From: a virus
DNA: 44,709 nucleotides
UHGV virus genome: UHGV-0231863
Reading direction: 5' to 3' (one strand)
Below are positions 7,856 through 43,868 of this stretch, piece by piece. The position numbers and the translations under genes are program-made. Each line of letters begins with the position of its first letter. The first letter of the stretch is position 1. The notes under the pieces were generated by a model. It did no database searches. It was not told where the DNA came from and saw only the letters and a list, made by a program, of their open reading frames with translations.

Positions 7856-10121
7856 TACCGCTAGCTTGATCGTACGAGTATCATCGACCGGCGTCGATAA
7901 AACCACATCACAACTGAACGGGCTTACCAAAGCCGCGGGGGCCGCCGCCGCTGCCGTTGTCAGTCTGGAAACTGCCAAACAGGTGTTCAGTGCGCTGGTG
8001 GACTCCCAGCGCAACTTCGATAAGCTGAACTCCGGCCTCATCACAATGACCGGGAGCGCCGAGAACGCTGCTAAGGCATTCAGCGTCCTGCAACAGTTCG
8101 CAAAAGAAACTCCGTATGGCCTCAATCAGGCGGTAGAGGGGTTTACCAAGCTCGTGGCGCTAGGTCTTAACCCCAGCAAAGAGGCGTTAATATCCTACGG
8201 CAACACCGCCGCAGCTATGGGCAAAGACCTTAACCAAATGATTGAGGCAGTTGCCGACGCCAGTACATTTGAATTTGAGCGCTTAAAAGAGTTCGGTATC
8301 AAGTCTTCCCAACAGGCGGATACAGTTTCGTTTACGTTCCGTGGCGTAACGACCACGGTTAAAAAGAACTCCGAAGAGATTCAGAAATACCTGCTAAATA
8401 TCGGTAACACTGATTTCGCCGGAGCGATGGAGACGCGCTCGAAGACCTTAGATGGTCAGTTATCTAGCCTGGCGGACTCCTTCGATGGTCTTGTTCTTGC
8501 GGTAGCGCAATCCGGTTTTGGCGACGCGGTAGGCGAACAAGCGGCAACAGCGGAAGATGCTATCACCGCACTCACCGACGCCATCGCGTCCAATGAGATC
8601 TCCGCCACGCTCCAGGATTGGGTGACACTGTTCAATGAGTCGTTCAAGTTTATTTCTGATGCCCTGAATGACCTGGCATTCGATACCGAGGACAAATCCG
8701 TTGATATGTCCGACTCGCTGGGGGATATACCGGATGCCATCCGTGAGTGGTTGCCGGATATCCAGCAGACATTCCACGAGGTTATTGCGTGGTTCCAGCG
8801 CATTGACGACTACGCGGTAGCGTTAGGCCAGACCCTTGCTGATGTGTTTGACCCGAGCAAAACGTCGGCGCTCACATTTAAAAAACTGACTGCAGAGGCT
8901 GATGCCGCATACGACGCCAGTATAAAACGTGCAGAGGCCGAATCCCAAGCCATTACCGACAGGTCTAAGCAGCGTAAGAAAGAAATTGAGGAACAGCGCA
9001 AGCAGTACGACGAGCGTAAGAAGCAAGAAATTGACTTAGCCAGCCTTGTTAATAAAAAGGGCGGAACTGGTGGGGTGGGGACAACCGACGATAAAGCAGC
9101 AAAAGCCGCCGCCAAGAAAGCAGAGCAATTGCGGAATCAGGCGCAAGATTACCTCGACACTTTGGCCCGTCAGAACAACGACGAGTTAAAGGCTATCGAC
9201 GCGCAGGAACAGCAGAAACTGGCTAAGGCAAAAGAGTTCTACAGCCAGGGCGCGTTGTCCCTGAAAGAATATGAACAAGCTAAAACAGCTATCGTCCTCG
9301 AAGCCGGGCAAAAACGACAAGATGAACTGGATAAACGCCAGAAAGAAGCCCAGGAAAAGCAGCAGAAAGGTGACGACTTCATGGCTCAGATTATGGGTCA
9401 GAACGCTACTGAGCTTGAGCTTCTCGACATCCAGGAACAGCAGAAACTGGCGGTAGCGGATAAGTACCGCGAGCAGGGTTTGATTAGCGAGAAGCAGTAT
9501 CAGGCCGCTCTTAACGCCATCAACGAGCAATACGCAACCAAACGTGCCGATGCAACGGCAACGGCCTTTGGTAACATGGCCTCAAACATCGGGTCTGCGT
9601 TGGGTGAGGCTTCTGGCGCGTACAAGGCATTCGCTATCGTACAGGCCACTATCGCCACGTACACCGCAGCTATTGAGGCGTACAAGTCAACGGCAGCTAT
9701 CCCTGTAGTTGGCCCGTTCCTGGCCCCTGTAGCCGCTGCCGCTGCCGTTGGTGCAGGTATGGCGCAGGTTTCCGCTATCCGGTCCGCGCGTGAACAGGGC
9801 GGACAGTTATCCGCAGGGCAGGCTTCCACCATCGCAGAACGCGGTAAACCAGAAGTTATTATGCCGGCTGGCGCATCTCGTGTTCGCACAGCACAGCAGA
9901 TGAAAGAAATTATGGGGCAAAACGGGTCTTCTTCCGGCCCGTCTAATGTTACTATCGTAAACAACACGAGTTCTCAAATCGGCAACGTATCCACTGAGCA
10001 AGATGATGAAGGCCGTTTGCGAATCATCATCGAGGAGCATGTGGCTGCCTCTTTGCAGAACAGCAACAGCAAGATTAGCAAGGCCCGCAAAGCCACAAGA
10101 AATGCGCCGGGGTTTAAATAA
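7848..10121 (+). CDS. tail tape measure protein
   Basis: ~758 aa from ATG 7848; long coiled-coil Ala/Gln/Lys/Glu-rich centre; follows chaperone pair. Confidence 0.85.
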   Translation: MADTASLIVRVSSTGVDKTTSQLNGLTKAAGAAAAAVVSLETAKQVFSALVDSQRNFDKLNSGLITMTGSAENAAKAFSVLQQFAKETPYGLNQAVEGFTKLVALGLNPSKEALISYGNTAAAMGKDLNQMIEAVADASTFEFERLKEFGIKSSQQADTVSFTFRGVTTTVKKNSEEIQKYLLNIGNTDFAGAMETRSKTLDGQLSSLADSFDGLVLAVAQSGFGDAVGEQAATAEDAITALTDAIASNEISATLQDWVTLFNESFKFISDALNDLAFDTEDKSVDMSDSLGDIPDAIREWLPDIQQTFHEVIAWFQRIDDYAVALGQTLADVFDPSKTSALTFKKLTAEADAAYDASIKRAEAESQAITDRSKQRKKEIEEQRKQYDERKKQEIDLASLVNKKGGTGGVGTTDDKAAKAAAKKAEQLRNQAQDYLDTLARQNNDELKAIDAQEQQKLAKAKEFYSQGALSLKEYEQAKTAIVLEAGQKRQDELDKRQKEAQEKQQKGDDFMAQIMGQNATELELLDIQEQQKLAVADKYREQGLISEKQYQAALNAINEQYATKRADATATAFGNMASNIGSALGEASGAYKAFAIVQATIATYTAAIEAYKSTAAIPVVGPFLAPVAAAAAVGAGMAQVSAIRSAREQGGQLSAGQASTIAERGKPEVIMPAGASRVRTAQQMKEIMGQNGSSSGPSNVTIVNNTSSQIGNVSTEQDDEGRLRIIIEEHVAASLQNSNSKISKARKATRNAPGFK

Positions 10122-10621
10122 TGAGCGACTTATATTTCCCACGTAGCCTTAAGCCAATTGTATCGAAAGGCTACTCAATGACCAGACGTAACAACGTCTG
10201 GAGTGTAGATTTAGCCGGTGGCGGGGTGCGTCAGGGCCGTGACACGTATTACGACGTGTTCCCTGTTAGCGTAACCCTGATTACATCCGCAATGGGTCGA
10301 CAGGCGTTTCTGTCGTTCCTCGAAAAAGTAGACGGCGGTGCGTCAAGTTTCTGGATGGCGCACGACTTCGGCATGGGCATCGAAGATTATCAGGTAACCA
10401 TTACGTCCACTATCGCCGAGTCCACCGAAGACGGGATTAACTGGACAATCACCTTCACGGCAACCGCCGAGAAATCGCCGTTCCAGGACCTTGAGAACCA
10501 GTGCCTGATTAACAATCTGCCAGATTTGTACGGTTGCTATGGTGACGGGCTGGGGTGTTTCCTTAAAGCCTACGGAACTGCACAATCAACGTTTCCACGA
10601 ATTTGGGACCCGATGCAATGA
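10121..10621 (+). CDS. minor tail protein (gpM-like position)
   Basis: First ORF after tape measure, start overlaps its stop. Confidence 0.45.
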   Translation: MSDLYFPRSLKPIVSKGYSMTRRNNVWSVDLAGGGVRQGRDTYYDVFPVSVTLITSAMGRQAFLSFLEKVDGGASSFWMAHDFGMGIEDYQVTITSTIAESTEDGINWTITFTATAEKSPFQDLENQCLINNLPDLYGCYGDGLGCFLKAYGTAQSTFPRIWDPMQ

Positions 10622-14041: not shown

Positions 14042-14053
14042 AGAGGACTCTAT

Positions 14054-17008
14054 ATGTCAAGCGGATGCGGTGACGTTTTAAGCCTGGCGGATTTACAAAC
14101 CGCCAAGAAACATCAGATTTTCGAGGCCGAGGTTATCACTGGCAAATCCGGCGGTGTCGCCGGTGGTGCCGATATTGATTACGCGACAAATCAGGTTACT
14201 GGACAGACCCAGAAGACGTTACCTGCCGTGTTGCGTGATGCTGGTTTTAAACTGGCAGATTTTGATTTCACGTCAGGCGGTACACTATCCGCTAACGACC
14301 GAAACACCGCAGTTTTGTGGCCGTCGTCCTCTGGCGGTGACGGGGATTGGTACTATTGGTTGGGTGCTCTACCAAAAATTATCCCGGCGTCATCTTCTCC
14401 GCAGTCCACCGGTGGCGTGGCAGATGGGGCGTGGCAGCCTGTCGGGTCGGTCATACTGCGGCAGCAAATATCTGATGTAAACGGTGCAATTCTGTACCCA
14501 GATTTACATGTGGCGCGATGGAAGGACGAATACGACCCGCGCGCATGGGGCGCCGTGGGCGACGGCGTAACTGATGATACTCAATCTATTTTTAATGTAT
14601 TAGCAGCTTCCCCCAACAATTGGATTATAGACGGCAGGGGTTTGACTTATAAAGTTTCCCAATTACCTGACATTAGTAAATTTAAGAATGCTGCATTCGT
14701 TTACGAGCGCGTAGCCGGGCAACCGCTTACTTATGTAGCTGATGGCTTCTTTAACGGCTCACTAACTAAGGTGACGGATACCCCGTTCTACAACGCATGG
14801 ACGCAGGATAAAACTTTCGTCTACGACCATGTTATTTACGCCCCGTTTATGGCGGGCGAACGACATGGTGTTCAAAACTTACATGTAGCTTGGGTTCGCT
14901 CTGGAGACGACGGGCAGACTTGGTCAATGCCTGAGTGGTTGACTCCAATCCATGCTGACTATAATGCTAGTGTTTCTACGGACAGAGTTAACTACCACTG
15001 CATGAGCATGGGTACGTGCGGCAACCGATTATATGCAGTTATAGAAACCCGCTACTTATCTAATATGCAGATGAAGAAGGCAGAACTTTGGTCACGCCCA
15101 ATGCCGTATTTTAGACACCCAACCGGCGGAATAACTATTAGTTCTGGCTCCACTACTGCTACCATTGTCATAGAAAATCATGGCCTAAAAGCAGGAGATG
15201 CGGTTAACTTCTCTAATACATCGGCAACCGGCGTATCGGGTAATATGACGGTTGCGTCTATAATTAACCGAAATACGTTCACTGTTACGCTCTCAAGCCC
15301 TGCGGGCTCCACCATAAACAATGCGGGGGTTACCTGGAACTTCGCAACGCGATTCTGGGACAGCCCATGGGAAATTACCGAATTGCCGGGGGTGGCATAC
15401 TCCACTAACGCTGATTTGTGTGTCACGGAGACACATAGTTTTGCGGTTATAGATGATGCTAACTACACTATCGCTGTCGGCTATCACAACGGCGATGTGT
15501 CTCCTCGGCGTCTCGGTGTCTTGTATTTTAGTAACGTGTATGACAATCCAGGCGTATTCGTTCGTCGCACTGTCGCTCAGGCATACGCTGATAACGCTTC
15601 TGAGCCGTGTGTGAAAAGTTATGGCGGTGTGCTCTACCTTACCACACGCGGCACATTACCTACTTCCCCCGGCTCTACACTGGCGATGAGCACCGATTCT
15701 GGGCAAAACTGGAGCTACTTGCGATTCCCGAACAATGTACATCACTCCAATCTTCCGTTCGCTAAAGTAGGTGACTATCTCTACATCTTTGGTACAGAAC
15801 GTGCATTTGGTGAGTGGGAAGGTGGCGAGCCGGACAGCCGCTATGAAGGTTCGTATCCGAGGACCTTTATGTGCAAAGTCGATGTGTCGTCCTGGCCTTC
15901 ATCTTTAGATGATGTTCAGTGGTTTAATATTACCGACCAAATATACCAGGGCCATATCGTTAACACTGCCGTCGGCGTCGGCTCTGTCTGTGTTAAAGAT
16001 GGCTGGTTGTACTATATCTTTGGAGGGGAAGACTTCTTCTCTCCCTGGAGCATCGGGGATAACAGTGCGAGGTTATGGTACAAACATGATGGGCACCCGG
16101 CTGACTTATATAGCTACCGGATAAAGATTGAAGACCACCCGTATGTATCACGTGATTTCAAATACGGAGCAACTCCTAACCGTACAATACCTGTCGCCAT
16201 GGGGGTAGATGGTGTACGCCATGTAGAAGCACCTTTAACGTTTGACAATGATGTAAGCGTGTACTCCCTGCATGTAACTGGTCTGGAATACGATGGCACA
16301 CAACAGTCTGCCGTGCGTGCACGGTTTGATGGTGATTACGGGCTGATTTCAAAAACAGTCCCCACTAAAACCCCATCGGGTCAAAGACTGATAGTTAGCG
16401 GTGGTGATGGTGCATCCCGTTCCGATGGTGCGTTGCTGCAACTGTACGGGGCAAACAATGCAACACCTAACAGGGCTATTATGTATGCGTCAGGAGGCTT
16501 CTACTCATACAACAATTTCCTTCCTTACTTAGACTCGCAAGTGTCTTTAGGTTCGGCGGGTAATAGGTGGACTACGGTGTACGCTACCACCGGTACGATA
16601 AACACGTCTGATGGTACACTTAAGACGAACAAAGAGGAAATTGAGGGACAACTCCTTACCGCATGGGAGGATATACATGTAATATCTTTTAAGTGGCTTG
16701 AAAGCCTAGCAATCAAGGGTGACACTGCAAGGATACACTTCGGTGTGATAGCCCAAGATGTGCGAGACATCTTGGTCAACCATGGGCTTATGGAGGAGGG
16801 TTCTACAGACTGTAAATATGCTTTCTTGTGCTACGACTCAATTGAAGCTACGTATGATATTGATGAAGATGGTCAGACTGTACAAGTACCCCCTCCCGGC
16901 GGCAGATGGGGGGTTAGGGCGGACCAGATGTTCTTCATAGAGATTGCGTATCAGCGTAAGAAGATGCGCGAGTTCGAGAAGAGGCTGGCAGCGCTAGAAG
17001 CCAAATAA
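14054..17008 (+). CDS. tailspike with sialidase-type (Asp-box) domain and C-terminal intramolecular chaperone
   Basis: GAVGDGVTDDT entry motif; two Asp-boxes SGDDGQTW and STDSGQNW; C-terminal SDGTLKTNKEEIEG auto-cleaving chaperone motif; central part AT-rich. Confidence 0.75.
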   Translation: MSSGCGDVLSLADLQTAKKHQIFEAEVITGKSGGVAGGADIDYATNQVTGQTQKTLPAVLRDAGFKLADFDFTSGGTLSANDRNTAVLWPSSSGGDGDWYYWLGALPKIIPASSSPQSTGGVADGAWQPVGSVILRQQISDVNGAILYPDLHVARWKDEYDPRAWGAVGDGVTDDTQSIFNVLAASPNNWIIDGRGLTYKVSQLPDISKFKNAAFVYERVAGQPLTYVADGFFNGSLTKVTDTPFYNAWTQDKTFVYDHVIYAPFMAGERHGVQNLHVAWVRSGDDGQTWSMPEWLTPIHADYNASVSTDRVNYHCMSMGTCGNRLYAVIETRYLSNMQMKKAELWSRPMPYFRHPTGGITISSGSTTATIVIENHGLKAGDAVNFSNTSATGVSGNMTVASIINRNTFTVTLSSPAGSTINNAGVTWNFATRFWDSPWEITELPGVAYSTNADLCVTETHSFAVIDDANYTIAVGYHNGDVSPRRLGVLYFSNVYDNPGVFVRRTVAQAYADNASEPCVKSYGGVLYLTTRGTLPTSPGSTLAMSTDSGQNWSYLRFPNNVHHSNLPFAKVGDYLYIFGTERAFGEWEGGEPDSRYEGSYPRTFMCKVDVSSWPSSLDDVQWFNITDQIYQGHIVNTAVGVGSVCVKDGWLYYIFGGEDFFSPWSIGDNSARLWYKHDGHPADLYSYRIKIEDHPYVSRDFKYGATPNRTIPVAMGVDGVRHVEAPLTFDNDVSVYSLHVTGLEYDGTQQSAVRARFDGDYGLISKTVPTKTPSGQRLIVSGGDGASRSDGALLQLYGANNATPNRAIMYASGGFYSYNNFLPYLDSQVSLGSAGNRWTTVYATTGTINTSDGTLKTNKEEIEGQLLTAWEDIHVISFKWLESLAIKGDTARIHFGVIAQDVRDILVNHGLMEEGSTDCKYAFLCYDSIEATYDIDEDGQTVQVPPPGGRWGVRADQMFFIEIAYQRKKMREFEKRLAALEAK

Positions 17009-17012
17009 AACT

Positions 17013-17036
17013 AAGGCCCCTTTCGGGGCCTTTTCT
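17013..17036. terminator. bidirectional intrinsic terminator
   Basis: AAGGCCCC-tttc-GGGGCCTT + TTTCT between convergent tailspike and leftward operon. Confidence 0.7.
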
Positions 17037-17240
17037 CTACTCTTCTGATAACTTCTCCAGTACAAACGCCAGTTGTGCATTAGCGGCGTCTCTTTGCTGC
17101 CGTAGTCGTAGAACCTCTTCTTCTAGTTCCTTGATACGTTTTATTTCTCGCTTTAACTGCATAGCAAGAAGTTGCTCGCGGGCATTAAGAGCAGATTTTA
17201 CCAATTCGTTGCAGGCGTCAATATCAAACTCATTATTCAT
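17037..17240 (-). CDS. small coiled-coil protein
   Basis: 67 aa, heptad-rich; last gene of leftward operon. Confidence 0.4.
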   Translation of the reverse strand: MNNEFDIDACNELVKSALNAREQLLAMQLKREIKRIKELEEEVLRLRQQRDAANAQLAFVLEKLSEE

Positions 17241-18661
17241 TTCTTACCTCGTCTCTTCATGTAATTAAGCAACTCTTCCTGGACCGATTTCTTCTCGTCA
17301 GTACGCGAGGCAACAACCTCGTCCAGCGTGTCTTTAGCAACGATGTGATAGAGGAACACTGGTCGCTCGTGGCCCGCCTGCTTCTGGCGCACCGGGCCTA
17401 TACGCTCGACAACCTGCAAATAGTGCTCAAGGTTCCAGCCTTGCGAAATAAACGCCAGATGATGTCCGCCGTCCTGTAAATTCAAACCATGGCCGGCTGA
17501 CGCGGGGTGCACGCATAGGATTTCGATTTCGCCACGGTTCCACGCTTCCATCTGCTTATTGCCCTTCGCGCCTTTTGCAAAAGCCTGCGCCTGCGGGAAG
17601 CGCTTGAGGATGCGCTCCAGTTCGTGCTTGAACTGATAGGCGACTAGTAACGGCGCACCCTGCAACTCCTCGGCAATGGACGCCAGCGCGTCCAGTTTCG
17701 TGTCGTGTACTTTCTCCCAGTCTTTGGTTGCTTCGCCGTCTGGCCCAGATACATATACGGCACCGGACGCAATTTGCAAGCACTTCGACGTCTTCGCCGC
17801 AGCGTTAGCAGCTTCCACTTCCCCGCTCTCAAGTTCCGCGAATAACTTCTCCTCCATATCGATGTACGCCTGACGTGCTTTCTTCGGCAGGTCGATTTCA
17901 ACCGTAACAATAATCGGCGCTTCACACCCGAACCACTCAGCGGCGTCAATAGTGAGACTAATGTCTTTCATCTTCTGATGAATCTCATTATCCGCACCCG
18001 GTCGTGCGTGATACTCCCGCGCCATCGCGGATTTCCCTTTCTGTACCGAGTTAAACCAGCGGTCTGTGAATGCCGTGTACGAAGAACCAAGGCGCTCGCC
18101 AGCGTCGATAAACCAGTTCTGCCCCCACAAGTCCTTGAGGCCGTTCGGCGACGGTGTGCCTGTCAGGTTAATGAAACGCTTAACCTTTCCGAACGCCACT
18201 TTGCTTAGCGCCTTAGCCCGTTTGCTTCCTCCAGAACGGCTACGGAAAGATTTAAGCTTCGTGCTCTCATCGGCAACGATAACGGTAAAAGGCCAGTCGT
18301 CTTTGCCGTAGTAGTCAATCAGCCACTCGATAACTTCGTAGTTGGTACACACCACGTTAGCATCTGACTCCAGCGCCGCGATACGGCGCTTCTCTGAACC
18401 TGTCGCGTCTACGACACGCAGACATGGGAAATTCCATTTCTCTTGTTCTGCGGGCCACGTACCGGACGCAACACGTAAAGGGGCCAGAATTAACACTCGG
18501 TCGTCGTCATTAAGTTGCCCATTACGGAACAGTCGATTGAGAACCCACAACGTTGACCCCGACTTACCGCTGCCCATGCTCGCCCAGATATTGCAGCGAT
18601 GGTGCCGCAGCATGAACGAAGTCATGAGCTTCTGGTATTCGCGCCTTTGAAACTTACTCAT
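17237..18661 (-). CDS. SF2 DNA helicase (SNF2/DEAD-like)
   Basis: Walker A GSGKSGST, motif II VIVADESTKLK, C-terminal helicase block. Confidence 0.75.
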   Translation of the reverse strand: MSKFQRREYQKLMTSFMLRHHRCNIWASMGSGKSGSTLWVLNRLFRNGQLNDDDRVLILAPLRVASGTWPAEQEKWNFPCLRVVDATGSEKRRIAALESDANVVCTNYEVIEWLIDYYGKDDWPFTVIVADESTKLKSFRSRSGGSKRAKALSKVAFGKVKRFINLTGTPSPNGLKDLWGQNWFIDAGERLGSSYTAFTDRWFNSVQKGKSAMAREYHARPGADNEIHQKMKDISLTIDAAEWFGCEAPIIVTVEIDLPKKARQAYIDMEEKLFAELESGEVEAANAAAKTSKCLQIASGAVYVSGPDGEATKDWEKVHDTKLDALASIAEELQGAPLLVAYQFKHELERILKRFPQAQAFAKGAKGNKQMEAWNRGEIEILCVHPASAGHGLNLQDGGHHLAFISQGWNLEHYLQVVERIGPVRQKQAGHERPVFLYHIVAKDTLDEVVASRTDEKKSVQEELLNYMKRRGKK

Positions 18662-19478
18662 TTACCGCCCCCATGAATGCCTTTATAAATTCAGCGGCTA
18701 CTTGCGGGACGATGGCATTGCCGTAACCGCGCAATCGTCCCACTCTTGCGGGTATCCCATTAGCCAGCGGGAATGCGCCGGGTTCAACCGGCCGGAACTT
18801 TCCATCACGGCATCCGAGCCAGTCAGCATCTGACCAGAAGCCGTGGTGCGGGTTGGTTGACTCGCTTTCAATCCCTGCTCTGTTGAGTAGTCCAGCCTGT
18901 CGAATGTTCTGTCCCTCCCGTCCGTGCGAATCACTGTCTCTCCGCTCCCTCTGAAGTCGTTCGCTGTCGGTGTAGGCCAGTTCGTGCGCGCCAAAGAAGA
19001 GTCGTTCTCTTTTGTGCGGTGCGCCGACGCTACAAGCTGGGAGTACAGCAAACCCGACGGCGTAGTCTTCTCCTTCCAGGTGAGCTTGTAAATCGCACAT
19101 CCACGATTTTGCAATTGCTGCCGCAACCTGCTCCCCAAAGATGACTGGAGGGCGGCACTCGCTGATGAGGTCGAGGAAGACCGGCGCGAGGTGTCTCGGG
19201 TCGAACTGTCCGAGTTGTTTTCCTGCCGTGCTAAACGGTTGGCAAGGCGGGCTTCCCGTCCAGAGAGGCGTATCCTCCGAAACTCCCGCAAGTCTGAGCG
19301 CGAGAGGCCAGCCGCCGATACCAGCGAAAAAATGACACTGGGTGAACCCGTCAAGGTCTTCTGGCTTAACTTCGGTAATGCTTCTTTCATCTACAACTCC
19401 AAAAGGTATGTGACCCTGTTTTATCAACTCACGCAGCCACGCGGCTGCGCCTTTATCCCATTCATTGTAATAGTTCAT
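18654..19478 (-). CDS. DNA (cytosine-5)-methyltransferase
   Basis: Motif I FFAGIGGW, motif [10 protein letters not shown], motif [12 protein letters not shown], motif [11 protein letters not shown]. Confidence 0.85.
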
Positions 19479-27991: not shown

Positions 27992-28116
27992 TTCTTTTTC
28001 TCCGCACGTTCTAAGGCTTCCTGCATACGGCGCATTGCGCGGTTCATCTTTACCGGTGCGAAGAAATCAGCGCCGTGTTTCTGGCGGCGTAGCTGTGGAA
28101 CTATTAACTTCGTCAT
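27988..28116 (-). CDS. small basic protein (approximate coordinates)
   Basis: ~42-codon ORF with AGGA SD whose stop overlaps the primase start. Confidence 0.3.
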   Translation of the reverse strand: MTKLIVPQLRRQKHGADFFAPVKMNRAMRRMQEALERAEKKK

Positions 28117-28166
28117 TGTATAATCCTTGTGCTTACTTTGATGATTTATGCTTCGGCCCCGACGTT

Positions 28167-28400
28167 CTAGCGTTGGGGTTTCTTTTGTCTACGCACCGCA
28201 TTAACCCACTCTCCTTCGCTACGGTAAAAACTGCAATCAAGGATATCCTCTATAGAAAATTTAACTATTTTAGTGGGTCCACAAAAGTTATAAGGGAAAA
28301 GTTCTACATAACACCCATCGTCGGTTATATTTGACGCAATCTTGAAATAATATTTAATGCTGCCGTCTTCGCGGAAGCTACAACCCATACGCCCAATCAT
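28167..28400 (-). CDS. hypothetical protein
   Basis: 77-aa ORF between AlpA-like gene and primase. Confidence 0.4.
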   Translation of the reverse strand: MIGRMGCSFREDGSIKYYFKIASNITDDGCYVELFPYNFCGPTKIVKFSIEDILDCSFYRSEGEWVNAVRRQKKPQR

Positions 28401-28579
28401 TTCACGTTCTCCTTAATCCACTCTTCAACTTTATTACGGTCGAATGTTCCCGGTAAACGGCGACCCATAACCTTAATACAGCAATCCGGGAATTTACCAC
28501 TGCGCAACCAGTTATTAATTGTCTGACGCGTCACCCCGATACGCTCGGCTACTTCATTCTGTGTCATGTAATGTTGCAT
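28397..28579 (-). CDS. AlpA/Xis-like winged-helix DNA-binding protein
   Basis: MTQNEVAERIGVTRQTINNWLRSGKFP; AGGAG SD before internal ATG at 28579; first gene of the leftward operon. Confidence 0.6.
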   Translation of the reverse strand: MQHYMTQNEVAERIGVTRQTINNWLRSGKFPDCCIKVMGRRLPGTFDRNKVEEWIKENVK

Positions 28580-28610
28580 TTTTAAATCTCCTGTTTGTTT
28601 GGTGAAGCCA

Positions 28611-28639
28611 AGTATAGGATAGCGGGAATGTAAAAGCAA
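28611..28639 (-). promoter_or_regulatory. promoter TTGCTT-17-TATACT for leftward operon (AlpA-like gene first)
   Basis: Read on minus strand; ~30 nt upstream of the AGGAG SD. Confidence 0.45.
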
Positions 28640-28686
28640 CCAAAACACCACACAAAGTTACTAAGATACAAAAGATGCTACCGGTA

Positions 28687-28715
28687 TTGACTTTTACTTA
28701 AAAATATGGTAAGCT
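28687..28715 (+). promoter_or_regulatory. promoter TTGACT-17-TAAGCT (copy 1 of duplicated cassette) with palindrome AAGCTCAGcCTGAGCTT
   Basis: Plus strand; palindrome 28711-28727 overlaps -10; followed by identical 38-mer shared with 41272-41309. Confidence 0.45.
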
Positions 28716-28718
28716 CAG

Positions 28719-28756
28719 CCTGAGCTTGTGAAGTATGAACAAGCGACCGCGGCGCG
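28719..28756 (+). repeat. 38-nt block identical to 41272-41309 (copy 1)
   Basis: CCTGAGCTTGTGAAGTATGAACAAGCGACCGCGGCGCG; contains hairpin GCTTGT-gaagtatga-ACAAGC and ATG of micro-ORF MNKRPRR. Confidence 0.85.
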
Positions 28757-28901
28757 CGGCGGGCGAAACGAGCACGTGTAGCGTGTGGAGTGAGGCTCGC
28801 TGGCGCGTTTGGGAGGCCCAAAGTCTATTGTAATTCCCGCCTAAATATCTAAGTTACTGATTTGCCGTTGGTTATATCCGCAAGCTCACTCACTCACTCT
28901 T

Positions 28902-28938
28902 GGTGCCTTCGGCACCACGTTCGTTTCGTTTCGCTTGC
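28902..28938 (+). terminator. UUCG-tetraloop hairpin plus U-rich tract
   Basis: GGTGCC-ttcg-GGCACC followed by ACGTTCGTTTCGTTTCGCTT; preceded by (CTCA)x3. Confidence 0.45.
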
Positions 28939-28983
28939 TACCCCATTAAACGAAAGAATCACAACGGCAACGTAACTATTCTC

Positions 28984-29012
28984 TTGCACACACCAACATA
29001 ATAGGATACTAT
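28984..29012 (+). promoter_or_regulatory. promoter TTGCAC-17-TACTAT with operator AATAGgataCTATT (29000-29013)
   Basis: CTTGCACACaccaacataataggaTACTATTCAC then conserved AAACGAGA leader and GGAG SD. Confidence 0.55.
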
Positions 29013-29046
29013 TCACTTATCGAAACGAGACAGAGGAGTGAGGGCT

Positions 29047-29244
29047 ATGTTTAAACGTGGTCAGTTGGTTAAATACTCCGACGATAAACACGGCATAATT
29101 GAATTAAAATCTGCTTTATTTCCAGGAAAGTACGTAGTTACCGTGCAAAATGTGAGAGGAGTAAATTCACAAATATACGTAGCGGAGGAGAACTTAAAAC
29201 TCATCGGCAACAATTTTAAATTTAAAGGGGGGAGGGTGAAGTGA
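29047..29244 (+). CDS. hypothetical early protein
   Basis: ATG with GGAG SD downstream of conserved promoter cassette; stop overlaps next start. Confidence 0.45.
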   Translation: MFKRGQLVKYSDDKHGIIELKSALFPGKYVVTVQNVRGVNSQIYVAEENLKLIGNNFKFKGGRVK

Positions 29245-29444
29245 TGGAAGAATTATTTGAAGAACTGAAACATCATGATTTCGAGGAAATATATTTCGTA
29301 GCTGAACGCTACGAGGTGCATCTGGCGGACGGTATAACGGTTATTACATCTACCAGCGAGCGAATGTTAAATAGCTTACGAGCAATACGAACGGCATCGA
29401 ATCATGATGCTTGTGCCGACGACGCTGAGGGAGGTTGCCGTTAA
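29244..29444 (+). CDS. hypothetical early protein
   Basis: Acidic 66-aa ORF, TGATG / TAATG coupling to neighbours. Confidence 0.45.
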   Translation: MEELFEELKHHDFEEIYFVAERYEVHLADGITVITSTSERMLNSLRAIRTASNHDACADDAEGGCR

Positions 29445-29623
29445 TGCGAATCCGTATAACTGACCGCAGGCTTATCCGTATAACTGACCGCAGGCTTATA
29501 GATTTCGGTATCTCGGTAGGTGATGTTTTTCCGGCGTTCAGAATCAACCATTATGGTTTTATGATTGAGTACAAAGGGTCGTTATTGTTCGTGTATCGGG
29601 ATGAATGTGAGGTTCTGGTATGA
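29444..29623 (+). CDS. hypothetical early protein containing tandem IRITDRRL repeat
   Basis: 59-aa ORF; includes the perfect 24-bp tandem duplication. Confidence 0.4.
   Translation: MRIRITDRRLIRITDRRLIDFGISVGDVFPAFRINHYGFMIEYKGSLLFVYRDECEVLV
29450..29497 (+). repeat. perfect 24-bp tandem duplication (2 copies)
   Basis: ATCCGTATAACTGACCGCAGGCTT repeated head-to-tail; encodes IRITDRRL twice in frame. Confidence 0.9.
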
Positions 29624-29775
29624 GAGAAGCATTTGAACGGTGGGCTGTGGTCGAGGGTCTGCCGGTTAACAAGGGTTCAAAGAAAGAGTACCTGAACGTT
29701 AAGACGCGTCTCGCGTGGCGGGCGTGGAAAGCTGGTGTGCAATCCTTGATTGAAAGAGGTGTGAGGTATGGGTGA
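29620..29775 (+). CDS. hypothetical early protein
   Basis: 51-codon ORF read by eye, ATGA-type overlaps at both ends. Confidence 0.35.
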   Translation: MREAFERWAVVEGLPVNKGSKKEYLNVKTRLAWRAWKAGVQSLIERGVRYG

Positions 29776-29968
29776 GTGGATTAAGTGTAGTGAGATGCTG
29801 CCGGGTAATGGGTATACGGATAAAGAGTTCCTGGTGTATGAAACGTTAAATAACGCAGTTCAGCACGATTATTACATAGTTCCTGATGACGGGAGAAAGC
29901 CTTTCTGGAATCACTACGATAATTACGTGACGCACTGGATGCCGTTACCCGAGCCGCCAGAAGTGTGA
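29768..29968 (+). CDS. DUF551-like small phage protein
   Basis: C-terminal THWMPLPEPP motif. Confidence 0.5.
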   Translation: MGEWIKCSEMLPGNGYTDKEFLVYETLNNAVQHDYYIVPDDGRKPFWNHYDNYVTHWMPLPEPPEV

Positions 29969-30035
29969 TGTTCAATAGTTTGGGATTTTACTGAGTGACT
30001 TACGCTGCTACACAGCAGCGTACAACTTTAACTTA

Positions 30036-30059
30036 GTGTCGTCAAAAGGCGACACTTTC
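30036..30059 (+). terminator. terminator-like hairpin
   Basis: GTGTCG-tcaaaagg-CGACAC + TTT; preceded by 9-bp-arm inverted repeat TACGCTGCT-acac-AGCAGCGTA (~30001-30022). Confidence 0.4.
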
Positions 30060-30102
30060 ATCAAACGCAACAATCGAAGCGACTATTGCAGGAGATGCAA
30101 CA

Positions 30103-30276
30103 ATGATTACTAAAGAACAGGCTGAACGACTAATCACGTTAATCGACACGATGGTTGATGCGAAAACCGATTTAGCAACGGCGACAGAGGAATCCGCTAC
30201 CTGGTCGCTTGAAGAAAGAGAGGCAGAAGCGGAAAGGGAGTTACTGGCGTTCATCGACTCTATAACACACCAATAA
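30103..30276 (+). CDS. hypothetical early protein (approximate coordinates)
   Basis: 57-codon ORF with AGGAG SD; opposite-strand track ORF 30042..30254 is low-complexity and judged spurious. Confidence 0.4.
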   Translation: MITKEQAERLITLIDTMVDAKTDLATATEESATWSLEEREAEAERELLAFIDSITHQ

Positions 30277-30283
30277 AATTTAC

Positions 30284-30312
30284 TTGCACACTAAGATAGA
30301 ATAGGCTACTAT
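30284..30312 (+). promoter_or_regulatory. promoter TTGCAC-17-TACTAT with operator AATAGgctaCTATT (30300-30313)
   Basis: CTTGCACACtaagatagaataggcTACTATTCAT then AAACGAGAGGAGAG leader. Confidence 0.55.
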
Positions 30313-30342
30313 TCATTTACACAAACGAGAGGAGAGACAGAG

Positions 30343-30480
30343 ATGGGCTGGTACGGTAGCTGGACTTTAGGCGAACCGGTAGACGCTTACGAAATAATTA
30401 GTAGCACTTCGGTGTGTGACGGCGACACTAAATCGCTGCTAGTCGGGGTGGATGAGAAAAGGGGTGAAGCTGATGAGTAA
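30343..30480 (+). CDS. hypothetical early protein
   Basis: 45-codon ORF directly downstream of promoter cassette at 30284-30312; stop overlaps next start. Confidence 0.35.
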   Translation: MGWYGSWTLGEPVDAYEIISSTSVCDGDTKSLLVGVDEKRGEADE

Positions 30481-31018
30481 CAAAAACGAAATATTCGAGT
30501 ACCTGATCGACCAGCTACGGCAGCAGGTAAATAACAGCCGGAGCGAAGACCTGGCTCATGAGGTGCAGTCACTTAAGAATCAGTTACGTGATGCTTCGGC
30601 GCAGATTAAGGAGTTGCGGGAAGACAACATTAAGAAATCTGAGCACATATCGCACCTGACATGGCAAGTTAAGGAGTTGCATCTGGCATTGGCCGAGGCT
30701 ACTGGTGACGTGGAGGCATACAAACTTATCCGCAAAGGTGCGTACGGTTCGGAGCAATCTGGTTGCCGAAAAGAAGATACGCAGGAATGTGACCACAATT
30801 GGATTATCGCTCCAGGATTGTTTATCGCCGAAGGCCACAAGGACAACGTGCCCGGTAGCCGGTTTTGCTGCGAATGCGGCAAGCGTGAGTGGGACGGACT
30901 TGAGTATGGGGCAACAGCCTGTACACAGGAGTGCAAACACAGTTTCTATTATGTAATAACAGATGGCTCAGCGCCGTTCGGTACGAAAGTATGTAAAACG
31001 TGCGGGGAATACTTCTGA
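30473..31018 (+). CDS. coiled-coil protein with C-terminal Cys-rich (zinc-binding-like) domain
   Basis: N-terminal heptad region; C-terminal CDHNW, CCECGK, CTQEC, CKTCGEYF. Confidence 0.5.
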   Translation: MSNKNEIFEYLIDQLRQQVNNSRSEDLAHEVQSLKNQLRDASAQIKELREDNIKKSEHISHLTWQVKELHLALAEATGDVEAYKLIRKGAYGSEQSGCRKEDTQECDHNWIIAPGLFIAEGHKDNVPGSRFCCECGKREWDGLEYGATACTQECKHSFYYVITDGSAPFGTKVCKTCGEYF

Positions 31019-41989: not shown

Positions 41990-42018
41990 TTGCCTTGCAT
42001 GTTGGAATAATTTATTCT
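41990..42018 (+). promoter_or_regulatory. possible promoter TTGCCT-17-TATTCT upstream of scaffold/capsid genes
   Basis: Weak match; shares upstream ATGTTGGAATAA with region at 41213. Confidence 0.25.
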
Positions 42019-42071
42019 TGACATGTAAATCCGGGTGGCCCGGGTTCCAACGTCCAGGGGACATACTGACT

Positions 42072-42773
42072 ATGAATCGTTTTTTACGTTATCCGTTCCA
42101 GGAAGAAGCTGGAGCAGAAGATAAATCAGGCGGCGGTGACGCACCTAAAATGTACACAGCCGAAGAAGTGCAGGCGCTGATTGAGAAAGAAGTCGCCGGG
42201 CTTAAGGCTAACCAGGAAGCATTGCTGAACGAGAAGAAAGAAGCCGCTCGTAAAGCAAAAGAGGCCGAAGAAGAGCGGCAGCGTGCACACCAGGAGGCCC
42301 TGAAAGCCGCCGGTAAGATGGACGAGTTCGAAAAGACGATTCGTAGCCAGTATGACCCGGTGTTAGCCGAGAAAGATGGTCGCATCTCCAGAATGGCAGA
42401 GCGCATCCTCGGCAGCGAACGCAAAGCGGTGTTAGGTTCTTTCGCGGGTGACTTCATTACCCCGGAAGCAGTAGACATTCTCGCGCCGTTCGTTAAGACT
42501 GAGTTTGAAGGTGATGATGTGGTTACTAAGTTTGTCGGCGCGGATGGCAACGTAGTCACAACTGACCCGGAACAGTTCCGCAAATACCTGCGCGAACATA
42601 AAGCGTTTTCGCATTTGATTAAAGCAAATGCAGCTTCCGGCGGCGGGGCTTCCGGTAGCAAAGGCGGCGGGGCCGCACCAGCGTTTAAAGACATGAGTGA
42701 AGCAGAGCGTTTAGCCCTGTATAAATCGAACCCTGCCGAATTTGAACGGCAACTTAAAGCCCTGAGGAAATAA
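42072..42773 (+). CDS. scaffolding protein (putative)
   Basis: Internal ATG of track ORF; highly charged Ala/Glu/Lys coiled-coil protein immediately upstream of capsid gene. Confidence 0.6.
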   Translation: MNRFLRYPFQEEAGAEDKSGGGDAPKMYTAEEVQALIEKEVAGLKANQEALLNEKKEAARKAKEAEEERQRAHQEALKAAGKMDEFEKTIRSQYDPVLAEKDGRISRMAERILGSERKAVLGSFAGDFITPEAVDILAPFVKTEFEGDDVVTKFVGADGNVVTTDPEQFRKYLREHKAFSHLIKANAASGGGASGSKGGGAAPAFKDMSEAERLALYKSNPAEFERQLKALRK

Positions 42774-42775
42774 TA

Positions 42776-43825
42776 ATGGCAATTACCACTATCGGCGATA
42801 TCGTAACTGGCAACATCCCGGTCCTGGCGTCTTATATGACCGAGGACCCGGTAGAAAAAACCGCGTTCTTCCAGTCTGGTATTCTGACCCCGACTCCGTA
42901 CGCTGCCGAGATTGCTCGCGGTCCGTCCAACGTCGCCAACATTCCTTTCTGGAAAGCGATTGATACTTCTATCGAGCCTAACTACTCGAACGATGTTTAT
43001 CAGGACATCGCTACCCCGCGTAATGTGCAAACCGGTGAGATGATGGCCCGCGTTGCGTACCTGAACGAAGGTTTCGGTCAGGCGGACCTGACTGTCGAAC
43101 TGACCAGCCAGAACCCTCTGCAATCCGTAGCGTCCCGTCTGGATAACTTCTGGCAGCGTCAGGCACAACGCCGTCTGATTGCTACCGCGCTCGGTCTGTA
43201 CAACGACAACGTAGCTGCTACCGATGCTTACCATACGCAGAACGATATGGTTATCGACGTGTCCGCTACTCTGGGCTTCGACGCAGGTGCGTTCATCGAC
43301 GCCACTCAGACTATGGGCGATGCTCTGATGGGTAACGGTGGTGAGGTGCTGGGCGCTATCGCGATGCACAGTTTCGTTTATGCACAGGCGCGTAAGCAGC
43401 AGCTTATCGACTTCATTCGCGACGCTGACAACAACACCATGTTTGCTAGCTACCAGGGCTACCGTGTGATTGTTGACGACAGCATGACTGTAGTTGGTAC
43501 TGGTCCAAGCCGTAAGTTCATCTCCATCATCTTTGGCAACGGTGCCATCGGTTATGGTGAAGGCAACCCGTCCAACCCGCTGGAATACGAACGTGAAGCG
43601 TCCCGCGGCAATGGTGGCGGCGTTGAAACCCTGTGGACCCGTAAGACCTGGTTGCTGCACCCACTGGGCTACAGCTTCACCAGCGCGGTAATCACCGGCA
43701 ACGGCACCGAGACTGTAGCCCGCTCCGCTTCCTGGCAGGACCTGGCGAACGCCTCCAACTGGAACCGTGTGGTTGACCGTAAGCATGTACCGATTGCCTT
43801 CCTGGTAACTGGTGTCGGGGCTTAA
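42776..43825 (+). CDS. major capsid protein
   Basis: 349 aa following scaffold, strong hairpin immediately downstream; composition typical of capsid proteins. Confidence 0.8.
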   Translation: MAITTIGDIVTGNIPVLASYMTEDPVEKTAFFQSGILTPTPYAAEIARGPSNVANIPFWKAIDTSIEPNYSNDVYQDIATPRNVQTGEMMARVAYLNEGFGQADLTVELTSQNPLQSVASRLDNFWQRQAQRRLIATALGLYNDNVAATDAYHTQNDMVIDVSATLGFDAGAFIDATQTMGDALMGNGGEVLGAIAMHSFVYAQARKQQLIDFIRDADNNTMFASYQGYRVIVDDSMTVVGTGPSRKFISIIFGNGAIGYGEGNPSNPLEYEREASRGNGGGVETLWTRKTWLLHPLGYSFTSAVITGNGTETVARSASWQDLANASNWNRVVDRKHVPIAFLVTGVGA

Positions 43826-43842
43826 GGTTAAGATATAATCGA

Positions 43843-43868
43843 GAGGGACTTCGGTCCCTCTTTTCATT
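43843..43868 (+). terminator. hairpin/terminator after major capsid gene
   Basis: GAGGGAC-ttcg-GTCCCTC + TTTTCATTT. Confidence 0.6.

What the first reader, a model, noticed from the sequence alone, without database searches (positions are those of the whole stretch)
14054..17008. Mosaic tailspike: conserved anchor and auto-cleaving chaperone flanking an AT-rich sialidase-like receptor-binding domain
The tailspike has a GAVGDGVTDDT entry motif, two Asp-boxes (SGDDGQTW, STDSGQNW) and a C-terminal SDGTLKTNKEEI chaperone motif, the architecture of endosialidase-type tailspikes. The central ~2 kb is visibly AT-richer than the N-terminal part and the rest of the tail module, suggesting a horizontally exchanged depolymerase cassette. 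If correct, the host is a polysialic-acid (for example K1) encapsulated enterobacterium.
Basis: partly seen in the sequence, partly recalled or inferred. Interest (0 to 1): 0.5.

Follow-up and report, generated by a model that had tools for sequence, protein, structure and literature searches.

The report
Known K1-capsule endosialidase phage tailspike
This gene encodes the capsule-digesting tail spike (an endosialidase) of a K1G-like phage of K1-encapsulated E. coli; it is about 98% identical to enzymes that were cloned and characterised long ago, so it is real but ordinary.

Summary
The ORF at 14054-17008 (+, 984 aa) and all four quoted motifs are present exactly as described. It is an endosialidase tailspike. 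It gives full-length Pfam matches to all four endosialidase domains and to the Peptidase_S74 chaperone. It is 960/984 aa identical to the cloned phage 63D endosialidase, 98% identical to the phage K1G tailspike, and 78% identical to solved structure 4HIZ. All K1F catalytic residues and the Ser/Lys self-cleavage pair are conserved.

The window is a Kagunavirus genome (Guernseyvirinae siphovirus). Its closest relatives were isolated on E. coli O18:K1:H7, and a 95.8%-identical enzyme (JSSK01 ORF40) was shown to degrade the K1 capsule.

The mosaic reading is correct, but the evidence is comparative rather than compositional. Sister phages with unrelated spike bodies share DNA up to nt 14229-14446 and again from nt 17000-17003. 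The exchanged cassette therefore includes the C-terminal chaperone, which is not a conserved flank. The GC dip (48.4% against 50.8% for the window) is real but unremarkable: it lies at the 10th percentile of 2-kb windows.

Verdict: already known, low interest.

One side observation deserves follow-up. A 230-aa ORF nested in the +1 frame of the neighbouring cytosine-methylase gene (18698-19390, -) shows signs of selection in five distantly related phages.

The parts
14043..14046 (+). Shine-Dalgarno GAGG, 7 nt upstream of the ATG
   Evidence: Sequence read directly. A ribosome-binding site is annotated at the same place in the 63D record.
14054..17008 (+). Tailspike / endosialidase gene, 984 aa, calculated mass 108.0 kDa
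   Evidence: ORF. Pfam. 960/984 aa identical to 63D endo-N-acetylneuraminidase BAA32990.1. 97-98% nt identity to K1G, K1H and L AB-2017. Mass.
14054..14446 (+). N-terminal virion anchor, aa 1-131. Aa 1-58 are nearly invariant in the genus; aa 97-131 match Pfam Tail_spike_N.
   Evidence: Aligned with the K1ind1, K-01 and Schulenburg spikes, which have unrelated bodies. 555 phage records, mostly Jerseyvirus and Kagunavirus, cover at least 80% of it. PF18668 E = 1e-13.
14447..14548 (+). Neck / start of the endosialidase cassette, aa 132-165. Shared with the K1F (62% identity) and phi92-like (50% identity) enzymes, not with sister Kagunavirus spikes.
   Evidence: The DNA junction with phage K-01 is at nt 14446.
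14552..14752 (+). Endosialidase N-terminal extension, aa 167-233; it begins at the GAVGDGVTDDT motif
   Evidence: PF12218 E = 3.6e-38. The solved catalytic fragments start here: chain residues 2-5 align with aa 166-167.
14753..16132 (+). Six-bladed beta-propeller catalytic domain, aa 234-693. It carries the two Asp-boxes (nt 14900-14923 and 15689-15712) and the residues H271, R485, E517, R532 and R583.
   Evidence: PF12217 E = 2.1e-223, profile positions 1-367 of 367. Residue mapping onto K1F H350, R549, E581, R596 and R647. Those residues are named as catalytic in PMC12632334.
15104..15352 (+). Beta-barrel domain inserted in the propeller, aa 351-433
   Evidence: PF12195 E = 1.3e-41, profile positions 1-83 of 83.
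16133..16606 (+). Stalk (tailspike) domain, aa 694-851
   Evidence: PF12219 E = 3.5e-74, profile positions 1-160 of 160. Aligned with 4hiz and 3gvl through aa 848-851.
16607..17005 (+). C-terminal intramolecular chaperone, aa 852-984. The predicted cleavage is after Ser852, with Lys857 as partner, releasing about 15.1 kDa and leaving a 92.9 kDa mature spike.
   Evidence: PF13884 E = 8e-13. PDB 3gw6 E = 7.7e-57. S852 and K857 align with K1F S911 and K916 and are invariant in five endosialidases. The Ser/Lys dyad is described in PMC3742443. Masses.
17013..17032 (.). Palindromic GC-rich hairpin (AAGGCCCC TTTC GGGGCCTT) with T-runs on both strands. Probable bidirectional terminator between the tailspike and the convergent 67-aa ORF 17037-17240 (-).
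   Evidence: Bidirectional terminators are annotated at the same place in phage Schulenburg. It belongs to the shared backbone: homology with sister phages resumes at 17000-17003.

Best explanation
The gene encodes the receptor-destroying tailspike of a K1-capsule-dependent Kagunavirus, a K1G/63D-like siphovirus.

Inferred from homologues:
- The protein folds as a homotrimer.
- Its first ~131 residues dock it to the tail tip, next to the J-like tail protein encoded just upstream.
- Residues 166-851 form the mushroom-shaped endosialidase: an N-terminal cap, a six-bladed beta-propeller with an inserted beta-barrel, and a stalk. This part binds and cleaves alpha-2,8-linked polysialic acid, tunnelling the virion through the K1 capsule to the outer membrane.
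- Residues 852-984 act as an intramolecular chaperone that nucleates trimer folding of the stalk. The chaperone then removes itself by Ser852/Lys857-mediated cleavage after Ser852.

Shown here by comparison:
- The gene is a module swap. A subfamily-wide anchor is fused, at about aa 59-135, to an endosialidase-plus-chaperone cassette that is also found in podoviruses (K1F, K1E/K1A), P22-like prophages (CUS-3) and phi92-like myoviruses.
- Sister Kagunaviruses carry unrelated bodies at the same slot.
For: - Domain content and completeness.
- Matches to solved endosialidase structures: E = 0 to 4hiz, about 1e-229 to K1F endoNF chains, and 7.7e-57 to the endoNF chaperone structure 3gw6. Identity to 4hiz over aa 166-851 is 78%.
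- 97.6% aa identity to the cloned 63D enzyme and 98% to K1G.
- K1F residues H350, R549, E581, R596 and R647, plus Q330, D331, H527, S528, K585 and N699, are all conserved. So is the S911/K916 dyad. Their roles are stated in PMC12632334 and PMC3742443.
- Near-identical genes occur only in phages isolated on K1 strains.
- Recombinant JSSK01 ORF40 (95.8% nt identity) degrades the K1 capsule, and antibodies raised against it were used for immunogold electron microscopy (PMC11641727).
- Cassette boundaries from three independent comparators: left at 14229, 14304 and 14446; right at 17000-17003.
- The anchor is shared by 555 Guernseyvirinae records.
- About 450 further records from Klebsiella, Salmonella, Vibrio and T5-like phages match only the last ~20% of the query, at 27-43% identity. 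The chaperone is therefore a widely shared module.
Against: - Nothing was tested biochemically for this exact protein. It differs from the 63D enzyme at 24 residues.
- Two of three K1F stalk residues that I recall (from memory) as forming a second polysialic-acid binding site, S848 and Q853, are R789 and L794 here. Processivity may therefore differ from K1F.
- The 63D enzyme was reported as a homotetramer (Machida et al. 2000, as cited in PMC5380687). This conflicts with the trimer expected from the solved homologues.
- The attachment partner of the anchor is inferred only from gene order.
Confidence: 0.93

Rival explanations
1. The enzyme works like the phi92 endosialidase rather than the K1F one. 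It would be bifunctional, with high activity on alpha-2,8 and low activity on alpha-2,9 linkages, and non-processive, so the phage could also use K92-type capsules. This is a variant of the main explanation, not an exclusive alternative.
For: The catalytic part is much closer to the phi92-type enzymes than to K1F: 78% identity to 4hiz and 82% in the propeller to phage REC, against 58% for K1F. At K1F stalk positions S848 and Q853 the protein has R and L; the phi92-like enzyme also has L at the second and a non-Ser residue at the first. phi92 gp143 is reported as bifunctional (PMC13450770, citing Schwarzer 2015).
Against: No residue-level determinant of alpha-2,9 activity could be checked, because the primary paper is not held. 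All listed hosts of the near-identical phages are K1 strains or unspecified E. coli.
Confidence: 0.2
2. The low G+C of the body records a recent acquisition from an AT-richer donor phage.
For: GC drops from 52.0% to 47.8% at about nt 14568. Homologous endosialidase genes in other phages are AT-richer: K1F 45.6%, K1A 42.9%, phi92-like REC 38.1%.
Against: The dip is at the 10th percentile of 2-kb windows, and the change-point is weaker than in 61% of comparable segments. Unrelated spike bodies of sister Kagunaviruses are as AT-rich or more so (46.6-47.4%), so a low-GC body is a general property of this slot. The nearest non-Kagunavirus homologue is only about 75% identical at the protein level, so the transfer is not recent.
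Confidence: 0.15
3. A catalytically dead, binding-only endosialidase relative that serves merely as an adhesin.
For: None specific.
Against: Every catalytic and active-site-network residue named for K1F is conserved. The 63D and JSSK01 enzymes are active.
Confidence: 0.03
4. A non-sialidase beta-helix depolymerase (pectate-lyase-like); the GAVGDGVTDDT motif is also common at the start of such spikes.
For: The motif alone resembles the entry of pectate-lyase-type spikes. This is from my own knowledge and was not tested.
Against: No pectate-lyase or beta-helix family appears among the Pfam hits down to E = 1. The propeller domains match end to end.
Confidence: 0.01

Closest known systems
Phage 63D endo-N-acetylneuraminidase (BAA32990.1, AB015437) and the K1G/K1H 'tailspike 63D sialidase' (ADA82273.1)
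   Same: Same length (984 aa). 960/984 aa identical to 63D with no gaps and 98% identical to K1G. Same position between the J-like tail gene and the convergent helicase block. Same host type, O18:K1:H7.
   Different: 24 substitutions relative to 63D. The surrounding backbone is more diverged than the spike: 90.8% nt (tail gene) and 88.9% nt (helicase) against 97.9% for the spike core, compared with K1G.
phi92-type endosialidase (PDB 4HIZ; phage vB_EcoM_REC REC_00244)
   Same: Catalytic part aa 166-851 is 78% identical to 4hiz. Same domain order and the same chaperone, 71% identical to REC.
   Different: A myovirus fibre with a different, shorter N-terminus. Similarity starts only at about aa 132. 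REC has extra residues in the chaperone domain. That 4HIZ is phi92 gp143 is from my memory; the tool names it only 'Endosialidase'.
EndoNF, K1F gp17 (PDB 1V0E, 3GVL, 3GW6)
   Same: Same fold modules, catalytic residues, Asp-boxes and Ser/Lys cleavage dyad. Aa 88-165 also resemble the region just before the K1F catalytic part.
   Different: 51% identity overall, and only 39% in the stalk. K1F has a T7-fibre-like N-terminus. Relative to K1F this protein has small insertions in the propeller. Two K1F stalk residues, S848 and Q853, are not conserved.
K1ind1 tailspike (ADA82374.1) and other Kagunavirus spikes (K-01, Schulenburg)
   Same: Same locus. Aa 1-58 are essentially identical, and weaker similarity continues to about aa 131-138. 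Flanking DNA is 89-99% identical.
   Different: Unrelated bodies; the GenBank note for K1ind1 reads 'C-term similar to HK620 Tsp'. No DNA similarity to this gene between about nt 14230-14446 and nt 17000, which includes the chaperone region.

Membership tests
Phage endosialidases (endo-N-acetylneuraminidases; from memory, CAZy GH58) | Six-bladed beta-propeller catalytic domain carrying two Asp-boxes | tested here: met
   PF12217 E = 2.1e-223 over the whole profile. The two Asp-boxes are at aa 283-290 and 546-553. The first is invariant and the S/D/G/W positions of the second are conserved in five endosialidases.
Phage endosialidases (endo-N-acetylneuraminidases; from memory, CAZy GH58) | Active-site residues equivalent to K1F H350, R549, E581, R596 and R647 | tested here: met
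   The equivalents are H271, R485, E517, R532 and R583. The residue list comes from PMC12632334.
Phage endosialidases (endo-N-acetylneuraminidases; from memory, CAZy GH58) | Beta-barrel insertion in the propeller, followed by a stalk (tailspike) domain | tested here: met
   PF12195 E = 1.3e-41 and PF12219 E = 3.5e-74, both full-length. Aligned with solved structures through aa 848-851.
Phage endosialidases (endo-N-acetylneuraminidases; from memory, CAZy GH58) | Endo-cleavage of alpha-2,8-polysialic acid | not testable with these tools
   Shown for homologues only: the cloned 63D enzyme, 97.6% identical, and JSSK01 ORF40.
Phage endosialidases (endo-N-acetylneuraminidases; from memory, CAZy GH58) | Homotrimeric assembly | not testable with these tools
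   Expected from the solved homologues. The literature reports a tetramer for 63D (PMC5380687), which is unresolved.
Peptidase S74 / intramolecular chaperone auto-processing domain | C-terminal domain with a Ser...Lys (S, S+5) dyad at its N-terminal boundary | tested here: met
   PF13884 E = 8e-13 at aa 852-912. 3gw6 E = 7.7e-57. S852 and K857 are invariant. The dyad is described in PMC3742443.
Peptidase S74 / intramolecular chaperone auto-processing domain | Self-cleavage and release after folding | not testable with these tools
   Predicted products are 92.9 and 15.1 kDa.
Kagunavirus / Guernseyvirinae tailspike (locus and anchor) | Conserved N-terminal anchor, encoded directly downstream of the J-like tail protein gene | tested here: met
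   Aa 1-58 are about 100% identical to K1ind1, K-01 and Schulenburg. Jerseyvirus spikes are 73-76% identical over aa 1-131. Gene order matches K1G and K1ind1.

The most novel reading that the evidence does not exclude
The 63D/K1G-type enzyme might behave like the phi92 enzyme: non-processive, with some alpha-2,9 activity. That would give this siphovirus a host range extending to K92-type polysialic-acid capsules. The odd 'tetramer' report for 63D might also reflect a real difference in assembly from the trimeric K1F paradigm.
Probability: 0.15. Interest if true: 0.3.

Novelty: already known. Interest (0 to 1): 0.1.

Why it matters
The finding identifies the window as a K1-capsule-dependent Kagunavirus and predicts its host, polysialic-acid (K1) encapsulated E. 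coli. That is useful for annotation and for choosing therapeutic phages or depolymerases, but it adds nothing new. The enzyme family, its structures, its self-cleaving chaperone and the modular exchange of tailspike bodies are all well described. This particular variant was cloned from phage 63D in 2000 and sequenced in K1G and K1H in 2010.

Tried and rejected
- Composition as evidence for transfer. The sliding-window percentile and change-point tests show the GC dip is not unusual.
- Promoter and terminator scan inside the gene. Hits were no more frequent than in shuffles. Only the hairpin at 17013-17032 is positionally meaningful.
- A separate N-terminus in phage XY1, suggested by a match that begins at query nt 407. 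This is most probably an artefact of where that circular record was linearised, since the CDS abuts the record end.
- tRNA and Rfam scans of the whole window found nothing. There is no terminal redundancy at the window ends.
- NCBIfam has no model for the spike.
- The primary papers on phi92 endosialidase and on K1G/K1ind (Bull et al. 2010) are not held. Statements about them rest on secondary citations, GenBank notes or my memory, and are marked as such.
- AlphaFold2 on the nested methylase-frame ORF gave mean pLDDT 48, so no fold search was run. No structure prediction was run for the tailspike, because 78%-identical solved structures exist.
Full report
**Observation**

The ORF 14054-17008 on the + strand encodes 984 aa. 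It starts 12 nt after the stop of an 851-aa tail protein gene and has a GAGG ribosome-binding site 7 nt upstream. All four quoted motifs are present at aa 166-176, 283-290, 546-553 and 852-863, and the Asp-box pattern occurs exactly twice.

The compositional claim is numerically right. GC is 53.9% for aa 1-165, 48.4% for aa 166-851 and 47.4% for the C-terminal domain. The tail module upstream is 51.9% and the window as a whole 50.8%. The dip is not statistically unusual. The catalytic part lies at the 10th percentile of equally long windows. The best change-point, nt 14568, is weaker than the best change-point in 61% of comparable segments of the same window.

**What it is**

Pfam gives full-length matches to the four endosialidase domains and two further matches:
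- End_N_terminal, aa 167-233
- End_beta_propel, aa 234-693, E = 2e-223
- End_beta_barrel, aa 351-433
- End_tail_spike, aa 694-851
- Peptidase_S74, aa 852-912
- Tail_spike_N, aa 97-131

Matches to solved structures:
- Endosialidase 4hiz, E = 0 over aa 166-851. Identity counted from the printed alignment is 78%.
- K1F endoNF chains, E about 1e-229.
- The endoNF chaperone structure 3gw6, E = 8e-57 over aa 756-984.

In the phage collection the gene is 95-98% identical at the nucleotide level over its full length to 19 records. These include K1G, K1H, L AB-2017, P AB-2017, ULINTec2, JSSK01 and the stand-alone record AB015437 for the cloned phage 63D ('Phage #D') endo-N-acetylneuraminidase. At the protein level it is 960/984 identical to 63D without gaps.

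The flanks and the rest of the window show that the window is a Kagunavirus genome (Guernseyvirinae). It is mosaic with respect to every deposited relative.

**Residue-level check**

I aligned the protein with the K1G, phi92-like (REC), K1F and K1A enzymes. The K1F residues named as catalytic or substrate-binding in PMC12632334 are H350, R549, E581, R596 and R647. They correspond to H271, R485, E517, R532 and R583 here and are invariant. So are Q330, D331, H527, S528, K585 and N699.

The chaperone boundary Ser852 and Lys857 align with K1F S911 and K916 and are invariant. The serine and lysine five residues apart form the self-cleavage dyad described for endosialidases (PMC3742443). Cleavage after Ser852 would give a 92.9 kDa spike and a 15.1 kDa fragment.

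Two stalk residues differ from K1F: S848 and Q853 are R789 and L794 here. I recall from memory that these contribute to a second polysialic-acid binding site in K1F.

**Mosaic structure**

Three Kagunaviruses with unrelated spike bodies were compared at the DNA level:

| Comparator | Shared DNA ends at | Shared DNA resumes at |
|---|---|---|
| K1ind1 | 14229 | 17002 |
| Schulenburg | 14304 | 17003 |
| K-01 | 14446 | 17000 |

Homology therefore resumes only 3-6 nt before the stop codon at 17006-17008.

At the protein level aa 1-58 are essentially identical in all four phages, and similarity fades by about aa 131-138. Beyond that point this protein resembles the K1F and phi92-like enzymes instead. 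The GenBank note on the K1ind1 spike already says 'N-term. similar to 63D and C-term similar to HK620 Tsp'.

The anchor, aa 1-131, occurs in 555 phage records, mostly Salmonella Jerseyviruses (73-76% identity) and Kagunaviruses.

The cassette from aa 166 to the end has full-length relatives in several unrelated phage types:
- phi92-like myoviruses, 75% identity
- K1F-like podoviruses, 50-52% identity
- K1E/K1A-like podoviruses, 44-46% identity
- CUS-3, where only part of the query is matched (63% identity)

About 450 further records match only its last ~20%, the end of the stalk plus the chaperone, at 27-43% identity in tail fibres of Klebsiella, Salmonella, Vibrio and T5-like phages.

Within this genus, however, the chaperone travels with the body. 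The composition argument fails as evidence because unrelated spike bodies of sister phages are equally or more AT-rich (46.6-47.4%). Compared with K1G, the spike core is better conserved (97.9% nt) than the neighbouring tail gene (90.8%) and helicase gene (88.9%).

**Mechanism**

This part is inferred from the characterised homologues.
- A trimeric spike is docked by its N-terminus to the tail tip.
- The propeller cleaves alpha-2,8-polysialic acid, so the virion digests its way through the K1 capsule.
- The C-terminal domain templates folding of the stalk and is then released by self-cleavage.

Supporting experiments exist for close relatives. The 63D enzyme was cloned and characterised (Machida 2000, cited in PMC5380687). 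Recombinant JSSK01 ORF40 specifically degrades the K1 capsule (PMC11641727). K1-dependent Kagunaviruses were isolated on O18:K1 strains.

One open discrepancy remains: 63D was reported as a tetramer.

**Novelty and score**

The finding is already known. It is a correct annotation, with two small corrections to the reasoning. Interest is 0.1.

The least ordinary reading still open is that this enzyme shares the properties of the phi92 enzyme, which it resembles more closely than K1F. The phi92 enzyme is reported as bifunctional on alpha-2,8 and alpha-2,9 linkages; I recall it as also being non-processive, which I could not verify because the primary paper is not held.

**Side observation (outside the finding)**

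The C5-cytosine methylase gene at 18654-19478 (-) encodes 274 aa and matches Pfam DNA_methylase (E = 4e-17). It wholly contains a 230-aa ORF in the +1 frame, at 18698-19390 (-). That ORF is annotated 'Mte8-like' in K1G. Its ATG has a GGAG sequence 6 nt upstream.

Several results suggest this second frame is maintained by selection.
- The same +1 frame is open for 224-394 codons in the homologous methylase genes of Klebsiella phages SBP and Seifer, Rhodobacter phage RcIroh and Xanthomonas phage phiXaf18. The +2 frame has 12-21 stops in each.
- I permuted synonymous codons while keeping the methylase protein and codon usage fixed. The observed open stretch was equalled or exceeded in fewer than 0.05%, 0.1%, fewer than 0.05%, 3% and 0.6% of 2000 shuffles for the five genes.
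- Third-codon positions of the methylase frame are 59-64% identical across the five phages in the two blocks where the +1 frame is conserved. Elsewhere in the gene they are 33-40% identical, at similar amino-acid identity.
- In relatives, length variation in the middle of the gene consists of 1-4 clean 'WPTPxAxD' modules when read in the +1 frame. In the one case translated in the methylase frame (phiEc4), the extra segment reads as low-complexity sequence.
- The +1 product has 5277 database relatives at E <= 1e-3. None of the top 120 has a Pfam domain.

No solved structure matches it, its AlphaFold model is of low confidence, and I found no paper on it in the searched library. This looks like a conserved dual-coding region and deserves its own follow-up.

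Noticed in passing
window 18698-19390 (-), nested in 18654-19478 (-): A 230-aa ORF lies wholly inside the C5-cytosine methylase gene, in its +1 frame. The same frame is open in homologous methylase genes of five phages from four distant lineages, significantly longer than in synonymous-codon shuffles. Synonymous sites of the methylase frame are markedly conserved exactly where the +1 frame is conserved: 0.59-0.64 identity against 0.33-0.40 elsewhere. In relatives the +1 frame carries 1-4 modular 'WPTP' repeats. It has 5277 database relatives, and none of the top 120 has a Pfam domain. It has its own GGAG + ATG. Probably a conserved dual-coding region of unknown function.
   Followed up: partly
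window 17013-17032: A perfect 8-bp GC-rich palindromic hairpin with T-runs on both strands lies between the convergent tailspike gene and a 67-aa ORF (17037-17240, -; phrog_13851, unknown function). It looks like a bidirectional terminator and marks the right-hand recombination junction of the tailspike cassette.
   Followed up: partly
window 9000-10600 and 18000-18600: The backbone is a patchwork. 9000-10500 is 97-100% identical to K1ind1 but 87-100% (mostly 87-95%) to K1G. 18000-18600 is 94-99% identical to K1ind1 and 86-88% to K1G. K1ind1 carries about 900 extra nt at window position 10579-10618, where its ORF23 is 1401 nt against 501 nt here. No deposited phage covers 80% or more of window 20001-44709.
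   Followed up: partly
window 42089-43867 (-): A 592-aa ORF runs antisense to two + strand ORFs (42018-42773 and 42776-43825). It has no Pfam match and is probably a spurious long antisense frame in a GC-rich stretch.
   Followed up: no
window 28000-30500: This is the lowest-GC stretch of the window (42-46%). Cumulative GC skew reaches its minimum at about 28500-29000, where gene orientation switches from - to +. It is presumably a divergent early/regulatory region.
   Followed up: no
literature on the phage 63D enzyme (97.6% identical to window 14054-17008): The 63D endosialidase is listed as a homotetramer in a review (PMC5380687), whereas all solved homologues are described as trimers. The same table gives the K1G protein accession ADA82273.1 for 63D.
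   Followed up: no
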